NCBI GenBank assembly: GCA_036781285.1
Contig: DAIQBH010000006.1
Span: forward strand, 1 to 62,566
Source of the DNA: Thermodesulfobacteriota bacterium
GTDB taxonomy: Bacteria > Desulfobacterota > Binatia > UTPRO1
DNA length: 62,566 bases
Reading direction: 5' to 3'
The notes beneath the pieces were generated by a model. That model was not told where the DNA came from, made no database searches, and worked only from the letters and a program-made list of their open reading frames with translations. Both the position numbers and the translations under genes were made by a program. Below are positions 37,426 to 61,424 of the stretch, one piece after another (the stretch's first letter is position 1; every line of letters starts with the position of its first letter).

Positions 37426-39123
37426 ATGCAGAGAAAAACGAGCGGCGCCGAGCTGACGATCCGACTCCTCGAGCGCCAGGGAATCACGACCATCGCGGGC
37501 ATCCCGGGCGGCTGCAATCTGCCGCTCTACGACGCGCTCCGCGCGAGCCGCATCCGCCACGTGCTCGCGCGCCACGAGCAGGGCGCGGGCTTCATCGCGC
37601 AGGGCATGGCGCGCGTCACCGGCGAGCCGGCGGTCTGCTTCGGCACGTCGGGGCCCGGAGCCACCAATCTCCTGACGGCGATCGCCGACGCGAAGCTCGA
37701 CTCGATTCCGCTCGTCGCGATCACGGGCCAAGTCCCGCGCGCGATGATCGGCACCGACGCCTTTCAGGAGATCGACACGTACGGCCTCACGGTGCCGATC
37801 ACGAAGCACAACTTCCTCGTGCGCTCGGCGGCGGAGCTGCTCGACGTCGTCCCCGAGGCGTTCCGGATCGCCGCGTCGGGACGGCCCGGCCCGGTCGCGA
37901 TCGACATCCCGAAGGACGTGCAGAACGAAGCGCTCGCGATCGACGCGCTGCCGGCGCCCGGCCGGCCCGATCCGTCGCCCTGCGCCGCCGCCGCCGACCT
38001 CGCGCGCGCCGCGGCGCTGATCGACGCCGCCGAGCGGCCCGTCTTGCTCGTCGGCGCCGGCGTGATCGCGAGCGGGGCGTGCGACGTGCTCCGGCAGATC
38101 GCCGAGGATGCCGCGATCCCGGTGGCGGCGACGCTGCTCGGGCTCGGCGCCATGCGGCACGACCATCCGCTCTTCCTCGGCATGGTCGGCATGCACGCCG
38201 CGCGCTGCACGAATCTCGTGCTCGAGGAATGCGATCTCCTGATCGGGCTCGGCATCCGCTTCGACGACCGCGCGACGGGGAAGGCCGCGGAGTTCTGCCC
38301 GCGCGCGAAGATCGTCCACGTCGACATCGACCCGAGCGAGCTCGGCAAGATCAAGCGGCCGGAGCTCGGCATCGTGGCCGACGTGGGGTCGGTGCTGCGC
38401 GCGCTGGCGCCGCGCGTCGCGCCGTCGGCGCGCTCCGCATGGATCGAGCGCGTGCGGCGTCTTCGCGCCGCGCATCCGCTCGTGATGCCGGGCGTCCGAG
38501 GCGGGCCTGACCCCCGCGATCCGTACGGCATCATCCTGCACACCGCGGCGCTCCTCCCCGAGGACGCGATCGTCACGACCGACGTCGGCCAGCACCAGAT
38601 GTGGGCGGCGCAGGCCTATCCGTTCACGCGCGCGCGCCAGTGGCTCACCTCGGGCGGCCTCGGCACGATGGGGTTCGGCCTGCCGGCCGCGATCGGCGCT
38701 GCGCTCGCCGCGCCCGACCGCACCGTCGTCTGCTTCAGCGGCGACGGCAGCCTGCTCATGAACGTCCAGGAGCTCGCGACCGCCGCGGAGGCCGGCGTCG
38801 ACGTGAAGGTCGTGCTCCTCAACAACGCCCACCTCGGGCTCGTGCGCCAGCAGCAGGAGCTCTTCTACGGCGGGCGCTATCACGCGTCGCGGTTCCATGC
38901 CGAGCCCGACTTCGCGGCGATCGCGCGTGGGTTCGGGGTCCCGGCGTTCGATCTCGGCTGCGGCGATGATCCGGGCGGGATGCTCGCGCACGCGCTCTCG
39001 GTGCCGGGGCCCTTCCTCGTCAACGTTCCGATCGCCGCCGAAGAGAACGTCTACCCGATGGTGCCGCCCGGCGGCGCGAATCGCGAGATGATCGGAGGAG
39101 AGCTCCATGCCCGCGCGAGCTGA
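37426..39123 (+). CDS. ilvB: Acetohydroxyacid synthase large subunit (AHAS I-like)
   Basis: [58 protein letters not shown]...NN, YPMVPPG. Confidence 0.96.
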
Positions 39124-46810: not shown

Positions 46811-47017
46811 ATGAGCACACATGCCGCGAAGCGCGCGACCGAGCGCGCGTTCGTCATCCAGTTCGATCCCGTCGCGGGGCGCCGCGGGCGCCTCCGCGGG
46901 CGGGTCGAGATGGTGGCCTCGGGCGAGGCCATCCGCTTCGGCTCGATCAAGCAGCTGACGACGTTCCTGGTCGACGTCCTACGCCGGCCGGTGGCCACCG
47001 AGGAGACCTTGTCATGA
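46811..47017 (+). CDS. 68-aa hypothetical protein coupled to the downstream STAND gene
   Basis: MSTHAAKRATERAFVIQFDPVAGRRGRLRGRVEMVASGEAIRFGSIKQLTTFLVDVL. Its stop overlaps the next start (ATGA). It supplies the GAGGAG RBS. Confidence 0.7.
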   Translation: MSTHAAKRATERAFVIQFDPVAGRRGRLRGRVEMVASGEAIRFGSIKQLTTFLVDVLRRPVATEETLS

Positions 47018-50000
47018 ACGAGTTCCCGTTGATCGATCGCGAGACCGAGCTCGCCGAGCTCACCGAGGCGCTCGAGAGCGCCGCGCGCGGCACCGGCCGC
47101 GTGGTGCTGCTCGCCGGCGAGCCCGGTATCGGCAAGACCCGCCTCGCGAGCACGCTCGCCGCGGAAGCCGAGAGCCGCGGCGTTCCCGTGTGGTGGGGTC
47201 GCGGTTGGGAGGACGGCTCGGCGCCCGCGTTCTGGCCGTGGAACAGCGCGCTCCGCCGCTGGATCGAGCGCGTCGACGCGGCCGAGCTCGCGGCCGCCGT
47301 CGGTCCGTTCGGCGCCGAGCTCGCGAACGTGTTCCCGGCCCTTCGCGACCGGTTGCCGGATCTCGCGGCGGGCGACGGCTCCGAGTCGGAGCGCGCGCGC
47401 TTCCGCATCTTCGACCTCGTGAGCCGCTTCCTCGCGGCCGTCGCGAAGCCGGCCGGCCTCGTGATCGTCCTCGACGACCTCCACTGGGCGGACCGTTCGA
47501 CGCTGAAGCTGCTCGAGTTCGTCGCGGCCGACCTTTCGGACGCGCGGCTGCTCGTCGTCGCCACCTATCGCGACACCGAGATCGGTACCGACCATCCGCT
47601 CGCATCGACGCTGTCGAGTCTCGCCCGCGAGTCGTCGACCCGCCGGATCATGCTCGGCGGTCTCTCCCCCGAGCAGTGCGCGCGCTGGCTCGCGTCGACG
47701 GCGCCGAATCGCGACGTCACCGCCCTCGGCGCGGCCCTCCATCAGGAGACCAACGGAAACCCGTTCCTCGTCGGCGAGGTGGCGCACCTCCTCGCCGCGG
47801 AGGAGCGCATCGAGAGCGTGCCGCACGGCGTGCGCGAGGTCGTCGGGCGCCGCCTGGCGCGTCTCGGCTACGACTGCCGCGCGACGCTCGCCGTCGCCGC
47901 CGTGTCGGGTGACGCGATCGATCCCGTGCTCCTCGAGCACGTGCTCGACGGCGTGACGCCGTCGGATCATCTCGCCGCCGCGGTCCGCGACCGCATCCTC
48001 GTCGAGGCCGAAGGCGGGCGGCGGCGCTATCGCTTCGCGCACGCGCTGATCCGCCGGGTGCTCGTGGACGACCTGGCGCCGTCGGTGCGGAGCCAGCTCC
48101 ACGCCCACATCGCGAACGTGATCGAGCGCTACGGCAGCGCGGGAACGATGACGACGGAGATCGTCTACCATCTGGCCGCGGCCGGCACGGACGAGACGCT
48201 GCGGAAGGCATTCGACTACGCGTGTCGCGGCGCCGACCAGGCCGCGCGCGGTCTCGGCTGGGAAGAAGCGGTGCGGCTCTACGGCATTGCGCTCGACGTC
48301 GGTGCCCGCTCGGGTCTCGTCGATGCCGCGCAAGCGGTCGAGCTGGAGCTGGCGCTCGCCCGGGCGCTCCGCGGCGCGGGCGACGTCCCCGCCGCGCGGG
48401 AACGGTGCGAGCGCGTGATGGACGCGTGCCGGCGCGATCCCGATCCGGTGGCGTTCGCGCGCGCGGCGCTCATCTTCGCGGGCCCGCTTCCCGAGTGGGG
48501 CCGCATGGAGCCGACCGTGCGCGCCGTGCTCGAGGAGGCGTGCCTCTCGGCGGCCGCGATCGACGACGCGCTCCGCGCCCGGCTCCTCGCCCGCCTCGCC
48601 GGCGACCTCATCGCGACGAACGCGGTCGAGCAGGGCGAGCGCATCTTCGCGCTCTGCGAGGAGGCCGCGACCGCCGCACGCCGCTCCGGCGCCTCCGGCG
48701 CGCTCGCGATCGCGCTCATGGGTACGCACTACGTGACCCGGCTCGGCATGCGGCCGGCGCGGCCCGGCGAGCGGATGCCGACCTTCGAGGAGATCCTCGC
48801 CGCCGCCGAGGCCGGCGGTGAGCACGAGTACGCGGCCGCCGTCCGCTACTCGCGCGCGATGAACCTGCTCTCGAAGGGCGAGCCGGAAGCGTTCTCGAGC
48901 GAGATCGACGGGCTCGCGACCGCGGCGTCGGCGTCGCGCTCGCCCGACGGGCTCTGGCTCACGGACGCGCTGGCCTCGCTGCGTGCGTGCTTACAAGGCC
49001 GCTTCGCGGCCGCCGAAGAAGCGCGCGAGCGCGCGCTCGCGACCGGGCTCCGCATGCAGCTCGCGAACTCTCTCGGCGTGTACGTGAGCCAGCGCATCAT
49101 GCTGCACGCGCTGAGCGGCCGGCTCGGCGAGATCGCCGGCGAGCTCGAGGTGTTCGTCGACGCGCATCCCTTCGGCGCGCGCTGGCGGCCGTTCCGCGCG
49201 CTCGCGCGGCTCGCGACCGGCAACGCCGTCGACGCGCGGGCCGAATTCGAGAGCATGCTCGCCGCCGGGCTCGAGCCCGCGGAGCGCGGGGTGATGTCGC
49301 GCACGTATCTCGCCGGGCTCACCGCGCTCTGCGTGGCGCTCCGCGACCGCGAGCACGCCGCGACCCTCTACGAGCGCATAGCGCGCCGCGACGACGTGTG
49401 GCAGATGGACGGCGCGCACTCGCTCGGCCCGTGGGCGCTCTTCCTCGGCCCGCTCGCGCGCCTCTGCGGCAAGAACGCGGCCGCCGTCGGCCACTTCGAG
49501 ACCGCCATCCAGCTCGCCCGCCGCATGGGCTCGCCGTTGATCGTCGCGCGCGCGCAGAGCCGGCTCGCGAGCCTCATGCTGTCGCTCGATCCCAACGCGG
49601 CGAAGCGCGAGCGCATCGCGACGATGCTCGCCGAGGCCGGCCGGTGCGCGGCCGAGCTCGGGCTCGCCGACGTGACGGCGCGGGTCGACCGCCTGCGCGC
49701 CAAGCTCACGGCCGCGCCTGCGTCCGCGGCGGGGCAAGACGGCAACGTCTTCCGCCAGGAGGGCGAGGTGTGGACCGTCCGCTACGAAGGCAAGGACGTG
49801 CGCCTGAAGGACGGCAAGGGTCCGCGCTATCTCGCCGCGCTCCTCGCCGCGCCCGGACGCGAGCTGCACGTGCTCCAGTTCGTCGCGACCGATCCGGGAG
49901 CGCGCCGCGTGCTCCACGAGCAAGGACTGACGATCGCGTCCTCGACCTCGAGCGCGCCGAGCGACGACGCGCCCGACGAGCAGGCGCGCCGCGCCTACAA

Positions 50001-50421
50001 GACCCGGCTCGAGGATCTCCGCGCGGAGCTCGAGGAGGCCGAGCAGTTCGCCGACGTCGGCCGCACCGAACGCCTGCGCGAGGAGATCGAGCAGCTCGTG
50101 TCGCAGCTCGCGGGACGCTTCGGCCGGCGCGCGCCGCGCCAGGGTCCCGCCGAGACCGCCCGGAAGGCCGTGACGAAGGTGATCCGGACCCAGATCGGGA
50201 AGCTGTTGGAGATGCACCCAGCGCTCGGCCGCCACCTCGGCGCGACCGTTCGCATGGGCACCGTCTGCGTCTACGCGCCGGCCGAGGCCGTCGCATGGGA
50301 CGTCGGGACGGCGGAGTCGCGGGGCCGGCGCCAGGTCGCGGCGCGCGGCGCGCGCAAGGTGCGCTTCCTCGCCGCGCCGCCGGTCGCGGCGACCGCGCAA
50401 CCGATGCGGGTCACGCGATGA
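47014..50421 (+). CDS. STAND AAA ATPase plus helical repeats plus C-terminal putative DNA-binding domain
   Basis: Walker A GEPGIGKT, Walker B IVLDDLHW, GNPF. The C-terminal domain is shared with 20413..24078. Confidence 0.9.
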   Translation: MNEFPLIDRETELAELTEALESAARGTGRVVLLAGEPGIGKTRLASTLAAEAESRGVPVWWGRGWEDGSAPAFWPWNSALRRWIERVDAAELAAAVGPFGAELANVFPALRDRLPDLAAGDGSESERARFRIFDLVSRFLAAVAKPAGLVIVLDDLHWADRSTLKLLEFVAADLSDARLLVVATYRDTEIGTDHPLASTLSSLARESSTRRIMLGGLSPEQCARWLASTAPNRDVTALGAALHQETNGNPFLVGEVAHLLAAEERIESVPHGVREVVGRRLARLGYDCRATLAVAAVSGDAIDPVLLEHVLDGVTPSDHLAAAVRDRILVEAEGGRRRYRFAHALIRRVLVDDLAPSVRSQLHAHIANVIERYGSAGTMTTEIVYHLAAAGTDETLRKAFDYACRGADQAARGLGWEEAVRLYGIALDVGARSGLVDAAQAVELELALARALRGAGDVPAARERCERVMDACRRDPDPVAFARAALIFAGPLPEWGRMEPTVRAVLEEACLSAAAIDDALRARLLARLAGDLIATNAVEQGERIFALCEEAATAARRSGASGALAIALMGTHYVTRLGMRPARPGERMPTFEEILAAAEAGGEHEYAAAVRYSRAMNLLSKGEPEAFSSEIDGLATAASASRSPDGLWLTDALASLRACLQGRFAAAEEARERALATGLRMQLANSLGVYVSQRIMLHALSGRLGEIAGELEVFVDAHPFGARWRPFRALARLATGNAVDARAEFESMLAAGLEPAERGVMSRTYLAGLTALCVALRDREHAATLYERIARRDDVWQMDGAHSLGPWALFLGPLARLCGKNAAAVGHFETAIQLARRMGSPLIVARAQSRLASLMLSLDPNAAKRERIATMLAEAGRCAAELGLADVTARVDRLRAKLTAAPASAAGQDGNVFRQEGEVWTVRYEGKDVRLKDGKGPRYLAALLAAPGRELHVLQFVATDPGARRVLHEQGLTIASSTSSAPSDDAPDEQARRAYKTRLEDLRAELEEAEQFADVGRTERLREEIEQLVSQLAGRFGRRAPRQGPAETARKAVTKVIRTQIGKLLEMHPALGRHLGATVRMGTVCVYAPAEAVAWDVGTAESRGRRQVAARGARKVRFLAAPPVAATAQPMRVTR

Positions 50422-50454
50422 GGTGATTCTCCGACGACGGATCGAGGCGACCGG

Positions 50455-52488
50455 TCAGGAAGCGGAGGACGGGCTGCGGAACTGCGCCGCGCCCTCGATG
50501 CGCTCCGTCAGCGCCGCGCGCCCCGTGCTCGGGACGTCGCTCGGGAACTTCGCGTCGCTCCGCCGCCATTGCTCGAGCCACTCGGGGCCGAGCAGCACAC
50601 GGCCGCGTGCCGCGGCGTGCGCGACGGCGGCCGGTGTCATCGCGAGCGTCGTCTCCGGGCGCCGGCCGGTCGGGGCGCCGCGCGCGATCACGAAGCCCGC
50701 GCCGAGCATCGCAGTGCGGACGACGGTCGCCGCGGAGTAGGTGAAGAGCTCGGTGTCGTGCGCGGCGCATTCCGCGAACACGGCCTCGAAGCATTCGAGC
50801 GTCCACATCGGTGTATCGGTCTTCTTCGAGAACGGATCCCAGAAGATGCAGTCCGGCGTCGGCGCTTGCGAGAGATGCTGGCGGAAGTCGCCCTCGAAGA
50901 GCGTCCAGACGATCGGCAGCACGTCCGAGCGCCATTCGGCGAAGCGCAGCACCTGGCTCGGTGCGGGATGGTGCAGGTGCGGGAACTTCACCGCATGGCG
51001 GAGCGCGAGCCGCAGCGAGGCGACGTCGTGCTCGAAGCTCACGAGGTGGAGCGGCCGGGCCAGATTCAGCGCGTCGCCTTCGGCCGCTCGCAGCGCGGCC
51101 ATCGCATTGTGCGCGGCGCCCATGCCGACGTCCCACACGACGTACGGGGTCGCGCTCGGCTCGGCCAGCCGGTGCAGCAACCTCGACTGCTCGACGTAGA
51201 GCGCGTTCGCCTCGATCGTCGGATCGATCCCGCCGTGCATCATCTCGCCCGAGGCGCGGTGCATGATGCTGGCGTGGCCTTCCGGGGAATCGTGGATCCG
51301 GAAGCGTTCGAGCGCGCTTTCGTTCCGGCGTTTGCGCCGGCGCGGGGTCGGGATCGATGGATTGTCGTCGTCGCCGCGGGCCAGGATCAGCCGTTGGTCG
51401 TCGCGGAACGCCGCGAAGGTGTCGGCGAGGATGTGGGCGCGCATGCGGCGCATGAGGCCGCAGTAGAAGTGGACGTTGTGCTTCGCGAGCAGCTGCCAGC
51501 CGAGCGCCTCGCTCGTCTTGATGAGGTGGTGGACGTACGCCCGCGAGTAGTCGCTGCACGTCGGGCAGCCGCACTCGGCGTCGACGGGATCCTCGGAAAG
51601 CTTGTAGACGCCGCGATAGAGATTCAGCCGTCCGGTCGACGTGAACGCGACGCCCTGCCGCGCCAGCACGGACGGAATGGTGCAGTCGAACATGTCGACA
51701 CCGCGCTCGACGGCTTCGAGGAGGTCGAGCGGCGTGCCGACGCCCATGAGGTAGCGGGGTAGGTCGCGCGGTAGAAGGGCTGCGGCGAATGCGGTGAAGC
51801 GCTCGCGGTCCGCTTTGCTCTCGCCGACGGCGAGCCCGCCGATCGCGAATCCGTCGAAGGGCAGGCGACGCATGTGCTCCGCGCTCTCCGCGCGGAGATC
51901 CTCGAAGCACGCGCCCTGCACGATCCCGAAGAGCGCCGATGCCGCGTCGCCCCGTGCCGCGAGGCTGCGCTCGGCCCAGCGATGCGTGCGGTGCATCGCC
52001 GCAGCGGCGACCTCGTGGTCGGACGTCGACGGCACGCACACGTCCATCGCCATCATGATGTCGCTGCCGATCGCGAGCTGGGTCGCGATGCTGCGCTCCG
52101 GGCTCAGCAGCACGCGCGCGCCGTCGACGTAGCTCCGGAAGACCGCGCCCTCTTCGGTGATCGTGCGGTCGTTGGGCAGCGAGAACACCTGATACCCGCC
52201 GGAATCCGTCAGCACCGACCGCCGCCAGTTCATGAACCGATGGATGCCCCCGAAACGCGCGAACACCTCGGGCCCAGGCCGCAGCAGCAAGTGGTACGCG
52301 TTCGCGAGCAACACGTGCGCGCCCCCCGCCTCGAGATCCTCGACGGTGAGCCCCTTGACGGTCGCCTGCGTCCCAACGGGCATGAAGAGCGGCGTCTCGA
52401 CCTCGCCATGCAATGTCCGGAAGGTACAGGCACGCGCCGACGACCTCGACGCGGTCCCGTCGACACGAAAATGCAGCCGCGAAGTCAT
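50455..52488 (-). CDS. tgt: tRNA-guanine transglycosylase fused to an MnmD/MnmC-like methyltransferase domain
   Basis: TPLFMPVGT, TDSGGYQ, MDVC, GIVQG, GGLAVGE, YLMGVG, DMFDC, CGCPTC..H. C-terminal DVGMGAAHN, WDPFS...MWT, TYSAA. Confidence 0.93.
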   Translation of the reverse strand: MTSRLHFRVDGTASRSSARACTFRTLHGEVETPLFMPVGTQATVKGLTVEDLEAGGAHVLLANAYHLLLRPGPEVFARFGGIHRFMNWRRSVLTDSGGYQVFSLPNDRTITEEGAVFRSYVDGARVLLSPERSIATQLAIGSDIMMAMDVCVPSTSDHEVAAAAMHRTHRWAERSLAARGDAASALFGIVQGACFEDLRAESAEHMRRLPFDGFAIGGLAVGESKADRERFTAFAAALLPRDLPRYLMGVGTPLDLLEAVERGVDMFDCTIPSVLARQGVAFTSTGRLNLYRGVYKLSEDPVDAECGCPTCSDYSRAYVHHLIKTSEALGWQLLAKHNVHFYCGLMRRMRAHILADTFAAFRDDQRLILARGDDDNPSIPTPRRRKRRNESALERFRIHDSPEGHASIMHRASGEMMHGGIDPTIEANALYVEQSRLLHRLAEPSATPYVVWDVGMGAAHNAMAALRAAEGDALNLARPLHLVSFEHDVASLRLALRHAVKFPHLHHPAPSQVLRFAEWRSDVLPIVWTLFEGDFRQHLSQAPTPDCIFWDPFSKKTDTPMWTLECFEAVFAECAAHDTELFTYSAATVVRTAMLGAGFVIARGAPTGRRPETTLAMTPAAVAHAAARGRVLLGPEWLEQWRRSDAKFPSDVPSTGRAALTERIEGAAQFRSPSSAS

Positions 52489-52543
52489 GAATAGGGAGGC
52501 TCTCTCACGTCACGCCCAACAGAGCCAGCTGCGGAATCTTTTT

Positions 52544-52630
52544 GAGCGAGGAGCGCGGATTGACTCCGCGCTCCGAGGGCCATCGGAGCATTTCGGGCGC
52601 GAAGCGCTCGAAAGCGCACGGGGCCGAAAT
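52544..52630 (+). repeat. Structured dispersed repeat, copy A (REP/BIME-like or ncRNA)
   Basis: Aligns with the reverse complement of 56367-56454. Three hairpins; 20-bp exact tail AAAGCGCACGGGGCCGAAAT. Confidence 0.85.
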
Positions 52631-52814
52631 GAAAAGGTCCGGGGCACCGACGCGTTCTCCACAAACGCGCCGGTGCTCCTCTCCGCGCCGAACCCATTCC
52701 CGCGCTGCGCTCCACTTCGCGCGCGGGGCGGCGGGATCTCGAAGTGACGGGATCGTGTCTAAACAAGAGTTGTTTGCTTGTCAAGCAACTTCCGATTGGG
52801 GTAGGTTCGCCGCA

Positions 52815-53609
52815 ATGCAACGGCGGAGCAATGCCCCCAAGGGCATCAAGGATCTCTTCTACGAGACCCGTGTGCTCAGCGGTCGCGAATACACCGTCAC
52901 GCGCTTCGCCAAGGAGGTTCTGGGCGGCGCGGTCGACCCGGTGATGCTCGGCTACATCGAGAAGGGAAAGCGCTTTCCGAACGAGGCTTTGGTCCGTCGG
53001 TTGGCGAAGATCCGCGAGGAGCCCGTCGCGCCGCTGCTCGCGGTGCTCTACCGCGATCGCATGCTGTATGCCTTCGGGCGTGAGCTCCGCCGCGCGCTCC
53101 ACGACCCCGCGCAGGTCGAAGGCATCGAGGACGCCGATCTCGCCGTGCAGGTGAGCCGCGCGATCGCGGCGCTCCCCGACGACGGCGAGTGGATCACCAC
53201 CGCGAAGTGGCGCGGCGCGATCGGCGTCGCGGTGCGCGCCGATGCGAAAGACGACGACGTCAAACGCGTCACGGATCTCTTGAAGGAACGCGGGCTCGTC
53301 GAGCAGTCGAAGGGCAAAGTGCGCCGCGTCTCGCGCCATTTCGTCGCCACGACGCTCGAAGAACGGCGCGCGCTGGCGATGGAGTTCACCGCGATCTACA
53401 CCAAGGCGTTGCTCGACAAAGTGAGCTTGCCGGAACGCGCGGCGGCGACGCATCTCCGCAACCACTACTTGCACATCGAGCGTGAACGGCTTCCCGAGTT
53501 CTACCAAAAGCTCGAGAAGGCGGCTCGGGCGCTGGCCGAGGAGTTCGCGGCCGACGCCGGAGCCAGTACGGAGTTCCTGAACGTCCTCGTCGTGGGAACG
53601 CCGGTTTGA
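52815..53609 (+). CDS. Putative transcriptional regulator: XRE-like HTH plus uncharacterised C-terminal domain
   Basis: MLGYIEKGKRFPNEALVRRLA resembles the XRE recognition helix. Start inferred at MQRRSN. Confidence 0.6.
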   Translation: MQRRSNAPKGIKDLFYETRVLSGREYTVTRFAKEVLGGAVDPVMLGYIEKGKRFPNEALVRRLAKIREEPVAPLLAVLYRDRMLYAFGRELRRALHDPAQVEGIEDADLAVQVSRAIAALPDDGEWITTAKWRGAIGVAVRADAKDDDVKRVTDLLKERGLVEQSKGKVRRVSRHFVATTLEERRALAMEFTAIYTKALLDKVSLPERAAATHLRNHYLHIERERLPEFYQKLEKAARALAEEFAADAGASTEFLNVLVVGTPV

Positions 53610-53619
53610 CGGAGTGAGG

Positions 53620-54240
53620 ATGCCGATCGACATGCGACGACTTGGAACGGGACTGCTTGCCGCGAGCGTGCTCGCCGCGATGCTGGTCGGCCTCGCCGGC
53701 TGCGGCGGCAGTGGCTCGAGCGGCTTCGATGCCGTTGCCAGCGAAGCGAGCATCCTCCAGCACGTCATCGACTCCGGCGATTGCGCGAAGTTCGGCGCCC
53801 AGACGTTCTGCGCGTCGGGCGTCGAGGCGCCCGTACGGCCCTTCGAGGGCGCGCTCGTGAAGATCCAGCAGCCGGTCGACACGCCGCTCGTTTGCACGGG
53901 CAGCCAGTTCGCGGAGCAGTGCACGGCGCCGCTGGCGTTCACCACCGAGGGTTTCAACGAGCCGAGCAGTCTCCTCGCCGCCGTCAGCGAAACCGAAGCG
54001 GGTCCGTGGACCCTCGCCGCCGTCGAGGTCACCGAGGGCGTCGACGGCGGTCCGCGCACCGTCTCGATCGCGGTGCCCGGGGACACCAGCGATCGCGGAC
54101 CGGCGCCGCTGATCGCCGCGGTCCTCGTCTACCAGGGCACGCCGCCCGAGAACTTGCCGATCGTGAGCGGGCAGCTCTCCGACTTCCAGGTCGATCTCGT
54201 CTACGTGAGCCAGCGGCTCGAGATCGTCGTCCCGCGCTGA
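53620..54240 (+). CDS. Hypothetical lipoprotein
   Basis: Lipobox LAGC after a hydrophobic stretch, then a GGSGSSG linker. Confidence 0.75.
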   Translation: MPIDMRRLGTGLLAASVLAAMLVGLAGCGGSGSSGFDAVASEASILQHVIDSGDCAKFGAQTFCASGVEAPVRPFEGALVKIQQPVDTPLVCTGSQFAEQCTAPLAFTTEGFNEPSSLLAAVSETEAGPWTLAAVEVTEGVDGGPRTVSIAVPGDTSDRGPAPLIAAVLVYQGTPPENLPIVSGQLSDFQVDLVYVSQRLEIVVPR

Positions 54241-54265
54241 TCGCGGCTCGCCATGCAACGCGCGG

Positions 54266-54700
54266 TTACTTCGCCCAGCCCTCGCGGAGCGGCGCGAAGA
54301 AGCGGAGCGTGATCTTGCGAGTCTGGAAACGCCAGCCGTCCGCGGTGCGGACGTAGCGGTCGTCGTACCAGCCGGCGCCGATCATGCTCTCGCCGTTCAC
54401 CTCGGCGCGCAGATCGATGTAGCACGCGCCGGTCGCCGTATCGCCATCGAGATCGACGACGTGCTGTTGGATGAAGGGCAGGAACGTCGAGCCCGCCGTC
54501 AGCATCTCGCGGAAGCCCGCGAGCAGCGCCGCGCGCCCGACGATCGGCGGGCGCGTCCCCGGATCCATCGAGCCGTCCTCGGCGAACAGATCGGCGAGGG
54601 CTTCGAGATCGTTCTGCCAGACGTAGTGCGCGTAGCGGCGGGCGAGATCGCGGATCGCTTCGAGGTCGGCGAGATCGCGGAGCGTACGGTCGGCGCTCAT
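54266..54700 (-). CDS. NTF2/SnoaL-like family protein
   Basis: DLEAIRDLARRYA..V, LFAEDG, GRAAL, GWYDDRYVRTADGWRF. Confidence 0.87.
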   Translation of the reverse strand: MSADRTLRDLADLEAIRDLARRYAHYVWQNDLEALADLFAEDGSMDPGTRPPIVGRAALLAGFREMLTAGSTFLPFIQQHVVDLDGDTATGACYIDLRAEVNGESMIGAGWYDDRYVRTADGWRFQTRKITLRFFAPLREGWAK

Positions 54701-55698
54701 TCGGCGAGATGATCGAGGTATTCCGAGAGGCCGTAGCCGACGCGATCGCCCCAACGCCACTCGGTCATGCCCTCGGCGATGCGCGTCACCTTGCCGTCGC
54801 GGCGGTTGCGGAGCGGGATCATCGCGAGGACCTTGCCGCTGATCTCGTGGACCGCGCCGTCCTTGGTCGTCGCGCGGACGCGAATGCGATCGTGGAGCTG
54901 CTGCTCGCCGACGAAGTCGGTGTCGACCTCGGTCTTCACGATCGCCGCGTTCGGCTGACCTTTCCGGTAGACGTAACCCGCCTGGATCTGCCGGCCGTCG
55001 CGCTGCACGACGAGGCTCGGGCATGCGCCGAGGTCGTCGCCGAAGCTCATCGTGAGCCAGCGGTAGTATTTCGGCGCTTGCCAGTAGCGCGGGCCCCAGG
55101 AGTGATCGCGGAGCCCCGGAGCGTTCAGCTCGTATCGTTGTCCGTCCACCACCAGTGTGCCGACGGCTTTGCCGTGCTGCTCGAGATGGCCCTTCGCGAA
55201 CTCCTGACCGGATTTCTCGACGCGCGCGCTCACCCAGCGGTCGCCGTCGCGCCGGCGCGGCTCGCCGCCGTAGCCTGGTGAGAGTCCGAGGTACGCGACG
55301 TCGAGCTCGACGGACACGAACGGGTTGCTCGCGAAGGCGGCCTTGGGATCGGCCATTTCGAGCGGGTCCGCCAGCATGCACGCATGGCCGCGATAGGTGA
55401 CGCGGTGCTCGACGAAGGGCGTCTTCACCTCGAAGCGGAGGCCGCCGGCGTCGTGCGCGTCGTTCGAGGCGATCTCGGGCCGCTTGTACATGAACGCGAC
55501 GCGTCCGTCGGGCAGGTAGAAGCACGTCGTCATCTCGCCCTTGCCCTCGTTCGGCCGGTTGCCGAGCCGCACGAACCCCCCGACGCGCAGCTTCGGGTCG
55601 AAGAAGTTGTAGTACGCGCTCTCGTTGAAGTTCTCCTCGCCCGTGTTCTCGTGCATCAGATCGTCGGTCGGGAGGAGGACGAGCTCGGCGTCGGCCAT
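54697..55698 (-). CDS. Conserved hypothetical protein (possible tocopherol-cyclase/lipocalin-like fold)
   Basis: NESAYYNFFD, RLGNRPNEG, RDHSWGPRYW. GGGAG RBS. The fold assignment is a guess. Confidence 0.6.
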   Translation of the reverse strand: MADAELVLLPTDDLMHENTGEENFNESAYYNFFDPKLRVGGFVRLGNRPNEGKGEMTTCFYLPDGRVAFMYKRPEIASNDAHDAGGLRFEVKTPFVEHRVTYRGHACMLADPLEMADPKAAFASNPFVSVELDVAYLGLSPGYGGEPRRRDGDRWVSARVEKSGQEFAKGHLEQHGKAVGTLVVDGQRYELNAPGLRDHSWGPRYWQAPKYYRWLTMSFGDDLGACPSLVVQRDGRQIQAGYVYRKGQPNAAIVKTEVDTDFVGEQQLHDRIRVRATTKDGAVHEISGKVLAMIPLRNRRDGKVTRIAEGMTEWRWGDRVGYGLSEYLDHLAE

Positions 55699-55796
55699 GG
55701 CGCACTCCCTACGCGATCCGCTCGCGGCGACGCAACCGTCCAGCTCACGGCGCCGGCTCGCTTTGGCTCGCCCGGCGCCCATGGTAAGGCCGGCGG

Positions 55797-58580: not shown

Positions 58581-59068
58581 CACGCCTCCTTCGTCGCGGC
58601 CGTCGCCGCCGCGGACCCGCGCCCGCGCTTCGCCCGTGCGACGCGGAGCCGCCGGACGTCGAGCCGCTTCCCGGTATGCTCGTCGACGACGACGGGACGC
58701 ACCTCGCGTCCGGTCTCGTGGTCGACGAGGGTCACCGGCGGTCCGTTCTCGTCCCACAGCCAATCCGCGCCCCACCGGAACATCGCCGCCAGCACGTCCC
58801 AGAACGCCCGGCCCTTGTCGGTCAGCCGATACTCGTAGCGGACGGGACGGTCGGCGTACGCCTGCTTCACCATCAGTCCCTCGGCGACGAGCCGCGCGAG
58901 CCGTTTCGCGAGCACCGCGCGCGGCACGTCGAGCCCGCGCTGGAAATCCTCGAAGCGGCGCTTGCCCGCGAACGCTTCGCGGAGCACGAGCGGGGTCCAC
59001 CAGTCACCGATGAGATCGGTCGCGCGGGCGATGGGGCAGGGCCAGGAGTCGAAGCGGGTGCGGCGCAT
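58580..59068 (-). CDS. HxlR-family winged-helix regulator
   Basis: CPIARATDLIGDWWTPLVLRE, RRFEDFQ, RYEYRLTDKG. Confidence 0.93.
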   Translation of the reverse strand: MRRTRFDSWPCPIARATDLIGDWWTPLVLREAFAGKRRFEDFQRGLDVPRAVLAKRLARLVAEGLMVKQAYADRPVRYEYRLTDKGRAFWDVLAAMFRWGADWLWDENGPPVTLVDHETGREVRPVVVDEHTGKRLDVRRLRVARAKRGRGSAAATAATKEA

Positions 59069-59171
59069 CAGTCCAGAGGGGGGACCTCTCCCCCTTCGCT
59101 GCGCGCGGCAAAGCCGCGCGAGCTCATCCCCCGGTTCGCCGTCGGTCGGCCGCGCGCCTCGCGACCTGCGG

Positions 59172-61424
59172 TCACGCCACCGCCTCGATGCGCGCCGGCA
59201 CGTGCTTGTGCCACGGTGTCCCCGCGAGCCAGTCGCGATCCTCCGACGACGTCAGCTCGTTCGGCGCGATCCCGTGTACGACCGATCGGCCGTCGGGATC
59301 GGGATAGGCGAGCCCGAGGCCGTTCGGCAGGCTCACGTGACCCGCCTGCATGCAGTCGTTGACCTCGACGACCGCCTCGGCGCTGCCGCGCTTGGTCGTG
59401 ATCCGAACGCGCCCGCCGTCGGCGACGCCGAGCGCCGCCGCGTCGTCGGGGCTCATGCGAAGCGCGCCCGCGGCGTCCTTCTTCCGCCACTCGGGGTTCC
59501 GGAAGATCGTGTTGGCCGTCGACGTCCGCCGCTCGCCCGCGGTCAGCACGAACGGAAAGGCGCGCTCGTGTGCCGGCGTCTCCGACGGCAGGGCACGCAG
59601 CTCGTCCATCAGCTCGTGCACGGTGAGATTGATCTTGCCGTCGGGCGTCGCGACCCGGCGCCACGTCTCCTCGTACTCGTCGACGGTGAAGGTCACGCCC
59701 GAGCGGCGGGTGCGGATCGCCTCGAAGAGCGCCTCGCCGAGCGCGGGGCCGTCGCCGTCGAAGCCGGCGCGGCGCACCGACTCGGGATAGCTCATCGCGC
59801 ACGTGTGCGCGGCGCCCCAGAGCAGGGCGACCGCCTCGTTCCCGGCGCCGAAGGTCGGGCCGAGCGTCTCGTAGAGAATGACCGGCACGAGACCGGCGAG
59901 CTCGGGATGCTCCATCGTGAACTGGAGGAACGCGGGCGCGAACACGGTGCGCCCCTGCTTTGCCGCCGCGTGCAACGGCTCCAACAGCGCGTCATCCAGA
60001 GCGCCGATCGCGCGCACCAACCGCCGATGGATCTCGGGCTCGGCGAGCGTGCCCGCGAGCGGCGGAAAGAGCGGCGCGCGCAGCTGGAACACGTTGTGCG
60101 GGAACTCGAGCGTGAAGAACGTCGCCTCCCACTTCTCGAACTGGGACGGCGCCGGCAGCACGTAGTGCGCGTGCCGTCCCGTCTCGGTGAGCGCGACGTC
60201 GATCACGACGACCAGCTCGAGCGCATCGAGCGCCTCGCGCATGCGCCGGCTGTCGGCGAGCGAGTGGCAGGGGTTCGTGCTCTCGACGATCATCGCGCGG
60301 AATCGCTTCGGATGGTCGGTCAGGATCTCGTCGGGGATGACGTTCGCCGGAATGAGGCCGGTGATGATGCGGTGGCCGCCGACGGGGCTCGTCTTTCCGC
60401 CTTCCTTGCCGCCGCCGAGGCCCGCCATGCGGGTGTGGATGTTCATCCCGCCCGGCTTCGCGAAGTTTCCGGTCAACAGGTACAGCAGCTTCTCGAGGTA
60501 CGAGTTCAGCGTCGAGTGCGGCGCCTGCTGGATGCCGAGGTCCTCGAAGATCGAGACGCTCTCGGCGGCGGCGATCCGCCGCGCTGCCTTCCGTACGAGC
60601 TCCTCGGGGACGCCGGCGCGCGCGCAGTAGTCGGCGACGGGGATGTCGCGCAGCACCGCGAAGATCTCGTCCTCGTTCACGGTGTGCCCGCGCAGGAACT
60701 CGTGGTCGACGAGGTCCTCCTGCACCAGCACGCCGAGCATCGCGGAGAGGCAGAACGCGTCGGTGCCCGGCTTCACCGCGAGATGGATGTCGGCGAGCTC
60801 GGCGCTTTCCGTGCGGCGCGGGTCGATGACTATCAGGGCGCGCTTCTCGTCGGCCGCGATCTCGCGCAGCACCGCCCGCGCCCGCGGGAAGCCGTGCGAC
60901 TGCCACGGGTTCTTGCCCACGAACACCGCGACCTCGGCGCGCTCGAAGTCGCCGGTCGTGTGGCAGCGCGGGCGGCCGTAGAGCTGGCCGTCGACCCAGA
61001 ACTCGCCGGTCTTCTCCTGCGCGAGCGCGTTCGACGTGTAGATGGATCCGAGCGCGCGCCGCACGGCGCCGCTGTACGCGCCGCCGAGATGATTCCCCTG
61101 GCCGCCGCCGCCGTAATAGAAGATCGTCGATCCGCCGTGCGTGTCGCGGATCGCGACCAGACGCTCCGCGATCTCGCCGATCGCCGTGTCCCAGTCGATC
61201 TCCTCGAACGTTCCGTCGGCGCGCCGCCGGAGCGGCGACGACAGGCGGTGCCGGCCGTTCTGGTAGTGATCGAGCCGCTGCGCCTTCTCGCAGGCGTAGC
61301 CGCGCGAGCCGGGATGGGCGCGGTCGCCGCGCACCTTCGTGATGTGACCATCCTCGGTCTTCACCTCGATGCCGCAGTTCACGCTACAGAGGATGCACGC
61401 CGTCTGGTGCCACGCGTCGCTCAT
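59172..61424 (-). CDS. Molybdopterin-dependent oxidoreductase with an N-terminal 4Fe-4S motif
   Basis: CILCSVNCG..GYACEKA, GKNPWQSHG, IDPRRTE, C-terminal MSPDDAAALG dinucleotide-binding domain. Confidence 0.92.
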   Translation of the reverse strand: MSDAWHQTACILCSVNCGIEVKTEDGHITKVRGDRAHPGSRGYACEKAQRLDHYQNGRHRLSSPLRRRADGTFEEIDWDTAIGEIAERLVAIRDTHGGSTIFYYGGGGQGNHLGGAYSGAVRRALGSIYTSNALAQEKTGEFWVDGQLYGRPRCHTTGDFERAEVAVFVGKNPWQSHGFPRARAVLREIAADEKRALIVIDPRRTESAELADIHLAVKPGTDAFCLSAMLGVLVQEDLVDHEFLRGHTVNEDEIFAVLRDIPVADYCARAGVPEELVRKAARRIAAAESVSIFEDLGIQQAPHSTLNSYLEKLLYLLTGNFAKPGGMNIHTRMAGLGGGKEGGKTSPVGGHRIITGLIPANVIPDEILTDHPKRFRAMIVESTNPCHSLADSRRMREALDALELVVVIDVALTETGRHAHYVLPAPSQFEKWEATFFTLEFPHNVFQLRAPLFPPLAGTLAEPEIHRRLVRAIGALDDALLEPLHAAAKQGRTVFAPAFLQFTMEHPELAGLVPVILYETLGPTFGAGNEAVALLWGAAHTCAMSYPESVRRAGFDGDGPALGEALFEAIRTRRSGVTFTVDEYEETWRRVATPDGKINLTVHELMDELRALPSETPAHERAFPFVLTAGERRTSTANTIFRNPEWRKKDAAGALRMSPDDAAALGVADGGRVRITTKRGSAEAVVEVNDCMQAGHVSLPNGLGLAYPDPDGRSVVHGIAPNELTSSEDRDWLAGTPWHKHVPARIEAVA

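What the first reader, a model, noticed from the sequence alone, without database searches (positions are those of the whole stretch)
50455..52488. TGT fused to an MnmD-like methyltransferase: two wobble-position activities in one chain
Seen: a full TGT with the catalytic Asp residues, the Zn site and the preQ1-type determinants (MDVC Cys, GGLAVGE Val). A basic linker (RRRKRR) joins it to a SAM domain with DVGMGAAHN, WDPFS..T.MWT and TYSAA. Known: TGT modifies G34, while MnmC/MnmD methylates nm5(s2)U34, normally in a different tRNA set. Inference: either coordinated wobble modification or a new methylation, for example on a deazaguanine base. I recall similar fusions in other deltaproteobacteria-like genomes but no characterisation.
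Basis: partly seen in the sequence, partly recalled or inferred. Interest (0 to 1): 0.62.

Follow-up and report, generated by a model that had tools for sequence, protein, structure and literature searches.

The report
Second TGT fused to aminomethyl methyltransferase
This is a real single gene: an extra, catalytically intact copy of the enzyme that inserts the queuosine precursor into tRNA, fused to an MnmC2-like methyltransferase. It always sits beside the normal enzyme and survives in bacteria that cannot make MnmC2's usual substrate, so it probably makes an undescribed methylated deazaguanine in RNA.

Summary
ORF 50455..52488 (-) encodes 677 aa: a complete bacterial-type TGT, a 30-aa basic linker, and an MnmC2-fold SAM methyltransferase with a conserved C-terminal tail. 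It is not a frameshift artefact, because 77 of 80 loci from other genomes carry both domains in one ORF.

- **Always an extra copy.** The fusion accompanies a canonical TGT in 47-48 of 49 genomes across phyla. In the window's own genome that copy is a queA-tgt operon on another contig.
- **Separate clade.** Fusion TGT domains form one clade. They keep every catalytic, preQ1-pocket and zinc residue (71/71). They replace Arg286 in all 71, and mostly replace Arg289, Val282, Asn290 and Glu157, which are invariant or nearly so in the canonical copies.
- **Not a typical MnmC2.** The methyltransferase clade is separate from characterised MnmC2.
- **Independent of MnmE/MnmG.** The fusion persists, with all 37 invariant residues, in a Binatia family that lacks MnmG in 14 of 14 genomes. 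Its substrate there cannot be nm5U34.

Best reading (about 0.45): the TGT half inserts preQ1 and the methyltransferase half N-methylates its aminomethyl group, possibly on a non-canonical RNA target. The literature lists the fusion but has not characterised it.

The parts
50455..52488 (-). Whole gene: 677-aa TGT-paralog/MnmC2-like methyltransferase fusion, including the stop codon at 50455-50457
   Evidence: Open frame with ATG start. The N-terminus matches the family consensus MSRLxF. Both Pfam domains are present.
51394..52488 (-). TGT domain, residues 1-365. Catalytic Asp95, Asp149 and Asp268 (Zm 102, 156, 280). preQ1 pocket Cys151, Gln191, Gly217-Glu223, Met248. Zn site Cys306, Cys308, Cys311, His337. 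Fusion-specific Val150, Thr270, Val274, Gln278, Arg292, Tyr120 and Thr155
   Evidence: PF01702 473 bits and TIGR00430 438.8 bits. About 55% identity to Z. mobilis TGT. Model TM 0.94-0.97, rmsd 1.5-1.6 A to 1Q2R and 2ASH. Residue comparison of 71 fusion against 22 canonical TGTs.
51307..51393 (-). Inter-domain linker, residues 366-394, containing RRRKRR. Predicted disordered
   Evidence: pLDDT below 50 for residues 376-389. Linker length is 29-33 aa in 78 homologues, with a median of 7 Lys/Arg. Runs of 4 or more basic residues occur in 16 of 78, mainly Binatia.
50629..51306 (-). MnmC2-fold SAM-dependent N-methyltransferase core, residues 395-620. Motifs: GEMMH (414-418), motif I WDVGMG (452-457), SFEHD (484-488), motif IV DPFS (551-554), TYS (583-585), Arg591
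   Evidence: PF05430 52.7 bits. NF033855 68.9 bits, below the cut-off of 136. phmmer to Aquifex MnmC2 3VYW E 4e-10. Domain model pLDDT 91; best PDB folds are 3VYW, 2QY6, 3PS9 and 3AWI. 37 invariant residues in 78 homologues.
50458..50628 (-). Conserved C-terminal tail, residues 621-677: two helices with invariant Trp637, Arg643, Ser644, Pro649 and Gln669. It lies outside the region aligned to E. coli MnmC
   Evidence: Invariant columns. Helices 635-643 and 654-665 with high pLDDT. Also present in the stand-alone paralogs L106, L108 and L111.

Best explanation
The gene encodes an accessory two-step RNA-modifying enzyme.

Shown:
- It is one polypeptide.
- Its N-terminal half is a paralog of bacterial tRNA-guanine transglycosylase. 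That half keeps the whole catalytic apparatus and the preQ1-type base pocket, but has changed residues on the RNA side of the active site.
- Its C-terminal half is a SAM-dependent amino-methyltransferase of the MnmC2 fold.
- The cell also has a normal queA-tgt operon and QueG.

Inferred mechanism:
1. The TGT half exchanges a guanine in an RNA loop for 7-aminomethyl-7-deazaguanine (preQ1). The site is either G34 of tRNA, or a G in a context other than the canonical U33-G34-U35.
2. The tethered methyltransferase then transfers a methyl group from SAM to the primary aminomethyl nitrogen of the inserted base. MnmC2 performs the same chemistry on the aminomethyl group of nm5s2U34.
3. The product is 7-(methylaminomethyl)-7-deazaguanosine (mpreQ1), which QueA should no longer be able to convert to queuosine.

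The window's genome lacks QueC and QueF, so the base would have to be salvaged.
For: 1. The fusion is real and widespread. 77 of 80 loci have a single ORF with both domains. At least 585 species genomes hold it, across Binatia, Bdellovibrionota, Verrucomicrobiota, Kiritimatiellia, Steroidobacteraceae and Acidobacteriota. Linker length is constant at 29-33 aa.

2. It is always an extra TGT.
- The window's genome has two TGTs. The other one overlaps queA.
- 47-48 of 49 fusion genomes also have a canonical TGT.
- In 121 genomes of the class, 15 of 17 fusion genomes have both copies. The two exceptions are 89%-complete MAGs. Of the 104 genomes without the fusion, 101 have exactly one TGT.

3. Fusion TGT domains form one clade (SH-aLRT 100, stem length 0.59), apart from the canonical TGTs of the same genomes.

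4. Catalysis is retained. D102, S103, D156, C158, Q203, G229, G230, L231, A232, E235, M260, D280, the Zn site and others are kept in 71 of 71. V233 is kept in 69 of 71.

5. RNA-side residues that are invariant or nearly so in 22 canonical TGTs are replaced. Canonical counts are out of 22.

| Canonical residue | Canonical count | In the fusions (of 71) |
|---|---|---|
| R286 | 22/22 | never R |
| R289 | 22/22 | R in 3 |
| V282 | 22/22 | I, T or S |
| N290 | 20/22 | R or Q |
| E157 | 20/22 | E in 4 |
| N304 | 19/22 | R in all 71 |

6. The MTase is not acting as MnmC2.
- It scores below the MnmC2 equivalog cut-off.
- It forms a clade separate from E. coli and Aquifex MnmC2.
- It coexists with canonical-like stand-alone MnmC2 in Bdellovibrionota.
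- MnmG and MnmE are both missing from the same six fusion genomes.
- All 14 sampled genomes of Binatia family f10 lack MnmG, including 100%-complete assemblies of 10-20 contigs.
- The f10 fusions keep all 37 invariant MTase residues.

7. The chemistry fits. The best structural neighbours are MnmC2, followed by other N-directed alkyl transferases. Motif IV is DPFS. N-methyl-preQ1 exists in nature, but only in phage DNA, where the unrelated DUF3109 enzyme DpdM makes it (PMC10516641).
Against: - There is no biochemical or mass-spectrometric evidence anywhere.
- MnmG is present in 44 of 50 fusion genomes, including this one. The fusion is the only PF05430 protein in about two-thirds of them. An MnmC2 role is therefore possible outside family f10.
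- One Chthoniobacterales genome (G041) has a fusion-type MTase as a stand-alone gene and only the canonical TGT. The MTase therefore does not strictly need the paralogous TGT.
- The model gives no defined inter-domain geometry (pTM 0.58, disordered linker).
- No conserved neighbours and no riboswitch link the gene to preQ1.
- The role of Arg286 and Arg289 in binding the anticodon loop rests partly on my recollection of the 1Q2R complex. I could not confirm it in a held paper.
- The window's protein itself keeps Arg289 (Arg277).
Confidence: 0.45

Rival explanations
1. The methyltransferase chemistry is the same, N-methylation of a queuosine-family base, but the TGT-like half is not the inserting enzyme. 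It would act as a docking or partner subunit. One possibility is a heterodimer with the canonical TGT, as QTRT2 pairs with QTRT1 in eukaryotes. This would bring the methyltransferase to the ordinary GUN tRNAs, whose preQ1 (or oQ/Q) was inserted by the canonical TGT.
For: - The fusion always co-occurs with a canonical TGT.
- Dimer-interface residues are conserved in the fusion: K52 (or R), F92, Y330, H333 and E339, with an aromatic residue or His at position 326.
- RNA-side arginines are lost.
- G041 has a stand-alone fusion-type MTase and only the canonical TGT.
Against: All catalytic and base-pocket residues are kept in 71 of 71 fusion TGT domains across several phyla. A purely structural partner would not need them. 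From general knowledge, QTRT2 has lost its catalytic residues. No heterodimer prediction could be run here.
Confidence: 0.2
2. An ordinary bifunctional enzyme with two independent wobble modifications in one chain. The TGT half makes preQ1-34 on GUN tRNAs, redundantly with the canonical TGT. The MTase half is the cell's MnmC2/MnmD and converts nm5(s2)U34 to mnm5(s2)U34.
For: - MnmE and MnmG are present in this genome and in 44 of 50 fusion genomes.
- The fusion is the only PF05430 protein in this genome and in about two-thirds of the others.
- The fold and SAM motifs are those of MnmC2.
- The literature lists it among 'MnmC2 fusions' (bioRxiv 10.1101/2023.12.21.572861).
Against: - It is retained with all invariant MTase residues in Binatia family f10, which lacks MnmG in 14 of 14 genomes. 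The f10 fusion genomes also lack MnmE.
- It scores 68.9 bits against the MnmC2 equivalog cut-off of 136.
- Its clade is separate from characterised MnmC2.
- It coexists with canonical-like MnmC2 in Bdellovibrionota.
- This reading does not explain why the partner is always a divergent second TGT and never the housekeeping one.
- 101 of 121 genomes of the class live without any PF05430 protein.
Confidence: 0.15
3. The methyltransferase has a different substrate. It could methylate free preQ1 before insertion, with the TGT half then inserting mpreQ1. Or it could methylate another amine or exocyclic nitrogen in the anticodon loop, with the TGT half only providing loop binding and base flipping.
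For: - Structural neighbours beyond MnmC2 include exocyclic-amine methyltransferases: m4,2C synthase 8VYD, N6-adenine MTases, and TrmN/Trm14.
- Residues next to the base pocket differ from canonical TGTs: 157, 159, 161, 162, and Ala232 in 71 of 71.
Against: Characterised members of the MnmC2 family act on tRNA-bound aminomethyl groups, not on free bases (bioRxiv 10.1101/2023.12.21.572861). The main preQ1-pocket determinants C158, V233, L231 and E235 are unchanged. Nothing points to a specific alternative target.
Confidence: 0.15
4. An assembly or frameshift artefact has joined two separate genes.
For: None found. One related locus, L033, has its TGT part split between two frames.
Against: There is one uninterrupted 677-codon frame. 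77 of 80 independent assemblies show the same architecture, as do 120 of 120 best database hits. Linker length is conserved.
Confidence: 0.01

Closest known systems
Bacterial tRNA-guanine(34) transglycosylase Tgt (Z. mobilis, E. coli, T. maritima; PDB 1Q2R, 2ASH)
   Same: About 55% sequence identity. Fold TM 0.94-0.97. All catalytic aspartates, the preQ1 pocket, the zinc site and dimer-interface residues are kept. It scores above the Tgt equivalog cut-off.
   Different: - It is a separate paralogous clade, always additional to the housekeeping tgt.
- Arg286 is always replaced. Arg289, Val282, Asn290 and Glu157 are mostly replaced.
- It is not next to queA.
- It carries about 310 extra residues: linker, methyltransferase and tail.
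MnmC2 / MnmD, the nm5s2U34 to mnm5s2U34 methyltransferase (Aquifex 3VYW; E. coli MnmC N-terminal domain 2QY6, 3PS9)
   Same: Same fold, the best PDB match. SAM motif I and a D-x-F-S/A motif IV are present. Both are predicted to methylate a primary aminomethyl group on a wobble base.
   Different: - 18-24% identity to the solved MnmC structures in the structural alignments.
- Below the NCBIfam equivalog cut-off.
- Separate clade.
- Has its own conserved C-terminal tail.
- Persists where MnmE and MnmG are absent.
- Fused to TGT, not to the FAD domain MnmC1.
TGT/MnmC2 fusions listed in 'Alternate routes to mnm5s2U synthesis in Gram-positive bacteria' (bioRxiv 10.1101/2023.12.21.572861)
   Same: This is that architecture (COG0343/PF01702 plus an MnmC2 domain).
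   Different: The paper only lists the fusion type among MnmC2 fusions. It reports no function, paralogy analysis or substrate.
DpdM, the dPreQ1 N-methyltransferase of phages (DUF3109) acting after DpdA2 (PMC10516641)
   Same: The proposed reaction is the same: methylation of the aminomethyl nitrogen of an inserted preQ1 base to give mpreQ1, coupled to a transglycosylase.
   Different: DpdM has an unrelated metal-binding fold and acts on DNA. Its partner DpdA is a DNA transglycosylase. The protein here has no DUF3109 or PADLOC (Dpd) match and has a tRNA-type TGT.
Eukaryotic QTRT1/QTRT2 heterodimer
   Same: Two TGT paralogs in one cell. One of them has altered substrate-side residues.
   Different: From general knowledge, QTRT2 has lost its catalytic residues. 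The fusion keeps all of them and carries an added methyltransferase. Heterodimerisation was not tested.

Membership tests
Bacterial Tgt (TIGR00430 / PF01702) | Profile score above the curated equivalog cut-off | tested here: met
   438.8 bits against 306.75; PF01702 473 bits
Bacterial Tgt (TIGR00430 / PF01702) | Catalytic Asp102 and Asp280, base-recognising Asp156, Zn site Cys318/Cys320/Cys323/His349 (Zm numbering) | tested here: met
   Asp95, Asp268, Asp149, Cys306, Cys308, Cys311 and His337. Each is conserved in 71 of 71 fusion homologues
Bacterial Tgt (TIGR00430 / PF01702) | preQ1-type pocket: Cys158, Val233, Leu231-Ala232, Glu235, Gln203, Gly230 | tested here: met
   Cys151, Val221, Leu219-Ala220, Glu223, Gln191, Gly218
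Bacterial Tgt (TIGR00430 / PF01702) | RNA-side residues Val282, Arg286, Arg289 (each 22 of 22) and Asn290 (20 of 22) of canonical TGTs | tested here: not met
   This protein has Thr270, Val274 and Gln278, and keeps only Arg277. In the family, Arg286 is kept in 0 of 71 and Arg289 in 3 of 71
Bacterial Tgt (TIGR00430 / PF01702) | Being the genome's housekeeping TGT, in the same clade as the queA-linked copy | tested here: not met
   The canonical queA-tgt operon lies on contig C8. The fusion clade is separated with SH-aLRT 100
Bacterial Tgt (TIGR00430 / PF01702) | Exchanges G34 of GUN tRNAs for preQ1 | not testable with these tools
   Needs an enzyme assay or RNA mass spectrometry
MnmC2 / MnmD (PF05430, NF033855) | Pfam Methyltransf_30 above the gathering score | tested here: met
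   52.7 bits against 22
MnmC2 / MnmD (PF05430, NF033855) | NCBIfam MnmC2 equivalog-domain cut-off | tested here: not met
   68.9 bits against 136
MnmC2 / MnmD (PF05430, NF033855) | MnmC2 fold with SAM motif I and motif IV D-x-F-S/A | tested here: met
   Best PDB folds are 3VYW, 2QY6 and 3PS9, E 2.5e-13 to 2e-11. WDVGMG and DPFS are invariant in the family
MnmC2 / MnmD (PF05430, NF033855) | Occurs only where MnmE/MnmG supply xm5U34 | tested here: not met
   MnmG and MnmE are both absent from 6 of 50 fusion genomes. MnmG is absent from 14 of 14 genomes of family f10, which includes fusion carriers
MnmC2 / MnmD (PF05430, NF033855) | Groups with characterised MnmC2 (E. coli, Aquifex) in a tree | tested here: not met
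   Characterised MnmC2 plus L107 and L109 form a separate group (SH-aLRT 96). The tree has long branches and was built with the quick method
MnmC2 / MnmD (PF05430, NF033855) | Methylates nm5s2U34 | not testable with these tools
   Needs an assay or complementation
DpdA/DpdM-type DNA 7-deazaguanine systems | DpdA-type transglycosylase, a DUF3109 methyltransferase, or dpd neighbours | tested here: not met
   No PADLOC match. Pfam finds only TGT and Methyltransf_30. No conserved neighbours in 80 loci

The most novel reading that the evidence does not exclude
The fusion is a self-contained writer of a bacterial RNA nucleoside that has never been described, 7-(methylaminomethyl)-7-deazaguanosine. 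It would be installed at a site other than the classical U33-G34-U35 of Asp, Asn, His and Tyr tRNAs, because the residues lining the phosphate-35/U35 side of the TGT active site have been replaced. This would be a second deazaguanine RNA-modification system, independent of queuosine, present in at least 585 species from several phyla. It would also be a non-orthologous counterpart of the phage DNA enzyme DpdM.
Probability: 0.25. Interest if true: 0.85.

Novelty: new variant of a known kind. Interest (0 to 1): 0.66.

Why it matters
Queuosine-family bases are the only tRNA modifications installed by base exchange. In bacteria the pathway is thought to have a single TGT and a single outcome. A widespread second TGT carrying its own aminomethyl methyltransferase would mean a branch of that pathway has been missed.

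Three consequences follow if the reading is right:
- A new RNA nucleoside (mpreQ1), and possibly a new RNA target.
- A natural example of how TGT specificity can be changed.
- An enzyme pair that could be used for site-specific RNA labelling.

It also corrects annotation. These proteins are currently named only 'Tgt', and comparative surveys count them as MnmC2. That inflates the inferred distribution of mnm5s2U synthesis.

The comparative results here turn the idea into a direct experiment: the fusion is never the only TGT, it has lost RNA-side arginines, and it persists without MnmE/MnmG.

Tried and rejected
- **Conserved gene neighbourhood.** All-against-all clustering of ORFs in 80 loci found no real neighbour shared by more than 10 loci. 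The larger clusters are alternative-frame shadows of the fusion gene itself.
- **Riboswitches.** No Rfam match within 50000-54500 at E up to 1. Seven diverse loci gave nothing except one tRNA.
- **Promoter and terminator scans.** Nothing found around the gene.
- **DNA-modifying or defence role.** No PADLOC match.
- **Apparent QueF in this genome.** The 24-bit hit is GTP cyclohydrolase I (248.6 bits), so it is not QueF.
- **tRNA repertoire.** The genome's tRNA set, called with aragorn, shows no unusual G34 tRNA or anticodon loop.
- **Roles of Arg286 and Arg289.** Literature searches found only the Val282 pocket-floor role and the position of Arg286. The human TGT-RNA paper is not held.
- **Earlier notes of this scan.** They propose the same mpreQ1 idea. 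I treated them as leads, not evidence.
Full report
**1. Observation**

The minus-strand ORF 50455..52488 is open for 677 codons from an ATG.

- Pfam finds a full TGT domain (residues 17-364, 473 bits) and Methyltransf_30 (residues 529-617, 52.7 bits against a cut-off of 22).
- NCBIfam places the N-terminal half above the Tgt equivalog cut-off (438.8 against 306.75).
- NCBIfam aligns residues 416-616 end to end with the MnmC2 domain model. The score is only 68.9 bits against a cut-off of 136.

The fusion is not an artefact.

- In 80 loci from other species, 77 have both domains in one ORF. Two of the exceptions are cut by contig ends.
- The 120 best database homologues all carry both Pfam domains and are named only 'Tgt'.

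**2. Distribution**

They include Binatia, Bdellovibrionota/Oligoflexia, Verrucomicrobiota (Chthoniobacterales, Opitutales), Kiritimatiellia, Steroidobacteraceae and Vicinamibacteria.
- Within the window's class the gene is patchy. 17 of 121 sampled genomes have it. All 8 genomes of the window's genus carry it, and none of the other genera of its family do.
- No neighbouring gene is conserved. No riboswitch precedes the gene.
- In the window its neighbours are a convergent 1135-aa AAA_16/TPR protein and unannotated ORFs.

**3. The fusion is a second TGT**

- The window's genome has two TGT genes. The other lies on contig C8, scores higher (502 bits), and starts at a GTGA overlap with the stop of a queA gene (385.7 bits).
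- Of 49 fusion-bearing genomes from all the phyla above, 47-48 also hold a canonical-length TGT.
- In the class sample, 15 of 17 fusion genomes hold both copies. The two exceptions are 89%-complete MAGs.
- Of the 104 genomes without the fusion, 101 have exactly one TGT. The other three have two canonical copies, one gene in two pieces, and none.
- In a tree of 71 fusion TGT domains, 21 canonical TGTs from the same genomes and Z. mobilis TGT, the fusion domains form one group. Support is SH-aLRT 100 and the stem length is 0.59.

**4. What changed in the TGT half**

Against Z. mobilis numbering, the fusion domains keep these residues in 71 of 71: D102, S103, D156, C158, Q203, G229, G230, L231, A232, E235, M260, D280, C318, C320, C323 and H349. 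V233 is kept in 69 of 71. The dimer-interface residues are also kept.

The model superposes on 1Q2R and 2ASH at 1.5-1.6 A, TM 0.94-0.97. So the half looks catalytically competent, with a preQ1-type pocket.

The systematic differences are at positions that are invariant or nearly so in the 22 canonical sequences. Canonical counts are out of 22.

| Position (Zm) | Canonical count | Fusion family | This protein |
|---|---|---|---|
| R286 | 22/22 | Q, A, S or V; never R | V274 |
| R289 | 22/22 | Q or K; R in 3 of 71 | R277 (kept) |
| V282 | 22/22 | I, T or S | T270 |
| N290 | 20/22 | R or Q | Q278 |
| E157 | 20/22 | mostly Q | V150 |
| N304 | 19/22 | R in 71 of 71 | R292 |
| H127 | 19/22 | Y in 71 of 71 | Y120 |
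| P162 | 18/22 | T in 70 of 71 | T155 |

[quoted passage not shown] I recall from the 1Q2R complex that R286 and R289 contact the anticodon loop around U35, but I could not confirm this in a held paper. Canonical TGTs require U33-G34-U35 in a seven-base loop (PMC8136771). The pattern therefore points to altered RNA binding, with unchanged base chemistry.

**5. The methyltransferase half**

- A separate model (pLDDT 91) matches MnmC2 structures best: Aquifex 3VYW, E. coli 2QY6, 3PS9 and 3AWI, and Yersinia 3PVC. After these come other N-directed alkyl transferases.
- Thirty-seven residues are invariant in 78 homologues. They include motif I WDVGxG, SFExD, motif IV D-(P/M)-F-S, TYS and R591, plus a conserved two-helix C-terminal tail.
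- In a tree, E. coli and Aquifex MnmC2 group with two stand-alone Bdellovibrionota proteins, away from the fusion clade. Other stand-alone Bdellovibrionota paralogs (35-39% identity to this protein's MTase domain) are intermediate.
- One Chthoniobacterales genome (G041) has a fusion-type MTase as a stand-alone 292-aa gene. There is no TGT remnant upstream, and the genome has only the canonical TGT. In the tree it sits next to the Verrucomicrobial fusion MTases, with no starred support.

**6. Test of the main rival: 'it is the cell's MnmC2'**

The rival is possible in this genome.

- The fusion is the only PF05430 protein here and in about two-thirds of the fusion genomes.
- MnmG is present in 44 of 50 fusion genomes, including this one.
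- MnmE is adjacent to MnmG in this genome (C1:41016-44171).

However, several results count against it.

- The six genomes without MnmG are exactly the six without MnmE.
- Four of them form one Binatia subclade of the fusion tree.
- Two of them are the same assemblies as G074 and G146, which are 99% and 98% complete.
- All 14 sampled genomes of that family (f10) lack MnmG, including 100%-complete assemblies of 10-20 contigs. Controls from neighbouring families have it.
- The fusions in this lineage keep all 37 invariant MTase residues. Their MTase domains are 70-86% identical to each other, close to the 76-87% of their TGT domains.

So in at least this lineage the MTase cannot be working on an MnmEG product.

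**7. Pathway context in this genome**

- Present: QueA and the canonical TGT, QueG (320 bits), MnmE and MnmG.
- Absent: QueC, QueF (the weak hit is FolE), and the YhhQ-type importer.
- The 7-deazaguanine base must therefore be salvaged.
- Fusion carriers outside Binatia mostly have QueF, 37 of 50 genomes. The five non-Binatia genomes with a hit above the QueC cut-off are listed. So the fusion does not depend on the route of supply.

**8. Interpretation**

MnmC2 methylates a primary aminomethyl group on the wobble base. preQ1 is 7-aminomethyl-7-deazaguanine, which TGT places at the wobble position. The simplest mechanism consistent with sections 3-6 is insertion of preQ1 by the TGT half, followed by N-methylation by the tethered MTase to give mpreQ1.

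- That base is known only from phage DNA, where the unrelated DUF3109 enzyme DpdM makes it (PMC10516641).
- No paper held reports it in RNA or assigns a function to this fusion.
- The fusion type is merely listed in bioRxiv 10.1101/2023.12.21.572861.
- Whether the target is the usual GUN tRNAs or a new site is open. The lost arginines favour a changed target. The stand-alone MTase of G041 favours the usual tRNAs.

I give the two-step reading about 0.45. The variant in which the TGT half is a partner of the canonical TGT gets 0.2. Ordinary MnmC2 function gets 0.15, another methyl acceptor 0.15, and artefact 0.01.

**9. Verdict**

This is a real, widespread and uncharacterised accessory enzyme. 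Both domain families are known and the fusion is already on record, so it is a new variant of a known kind. The comparative evidence gathered here makes an undescribed RNA modification a concrete prediction that can be tested cheaply.

Noticed in passing
whole genome G000 (C8:33373-34419 tgt with queA upstream; C24:14709-15689 queG): The genome and its Binatia relatives encode the tRNA-bound late steps of queuosine synthesis (TGT, QueA, QueG). They lack QueC, QueF and a YhhQ-type importer. This implies preQ1 salvage through an unidentified transporter.
   Followed up: partly
Binatia family f10 (G058-G162): All 14 sampled genomes of this family lack MnmG. The four fusion-bearing relatives also lack MnmE. 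This is a lineage-wide loss of the otherwise near-universal xm5U34 pathway.
   Followed up: partly
L106 1810..2685 (G041, Chthoniobacterales): A stand-alone 292-aa version of the fusion-type methyltransferase, 62% identical to a fusion MTase of the same order. The genome has only the canonical TGT, so this looks like a secondary fission or loss of the TGT half.
   Followed up: partly
window 47014..50421 (+): A 1135-aa protein with an N-terminal AAA_16 (STAND-like) ATPase and a weak TPR match. It is convergent with the fusion gene and ends 33 bases from its stop codon.
   Followed up: no
window 54697..55782 (-): A 361-aa protein with DUF7065 and DUF7064 domains. The ORFs at 52542..53609 and 53614..54240 have no Pfam match. 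The latter begins with a lipoprotein-like signal (LAGC).
   Followed up: no
window 38368..38462 (+): ARAGORN calls a 95-nt tRNA-Ala(GGC), which is unusually long for a tRNA. The loop reads CUGGCGC. It is either a false positive or an intron-containing or atypical gene.
   Followed up: no
L040 (G021:C20, Verrucomicrobia): The canonical tgt (65272-66345, minus strand) and the fusion (58711-60540, plus strand) lie about 5 kb apart on one contig. This was the only case seen of the two paralogs being near each other.
   Followed up: no
G102 (same class, no fusion): This genome has two canonical-length TGT genes (frames of 393 and 425 aa) without any PF05430 domain. It is the only non-fusion TGT duplication among the 121 genomes.
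   Followed up: no
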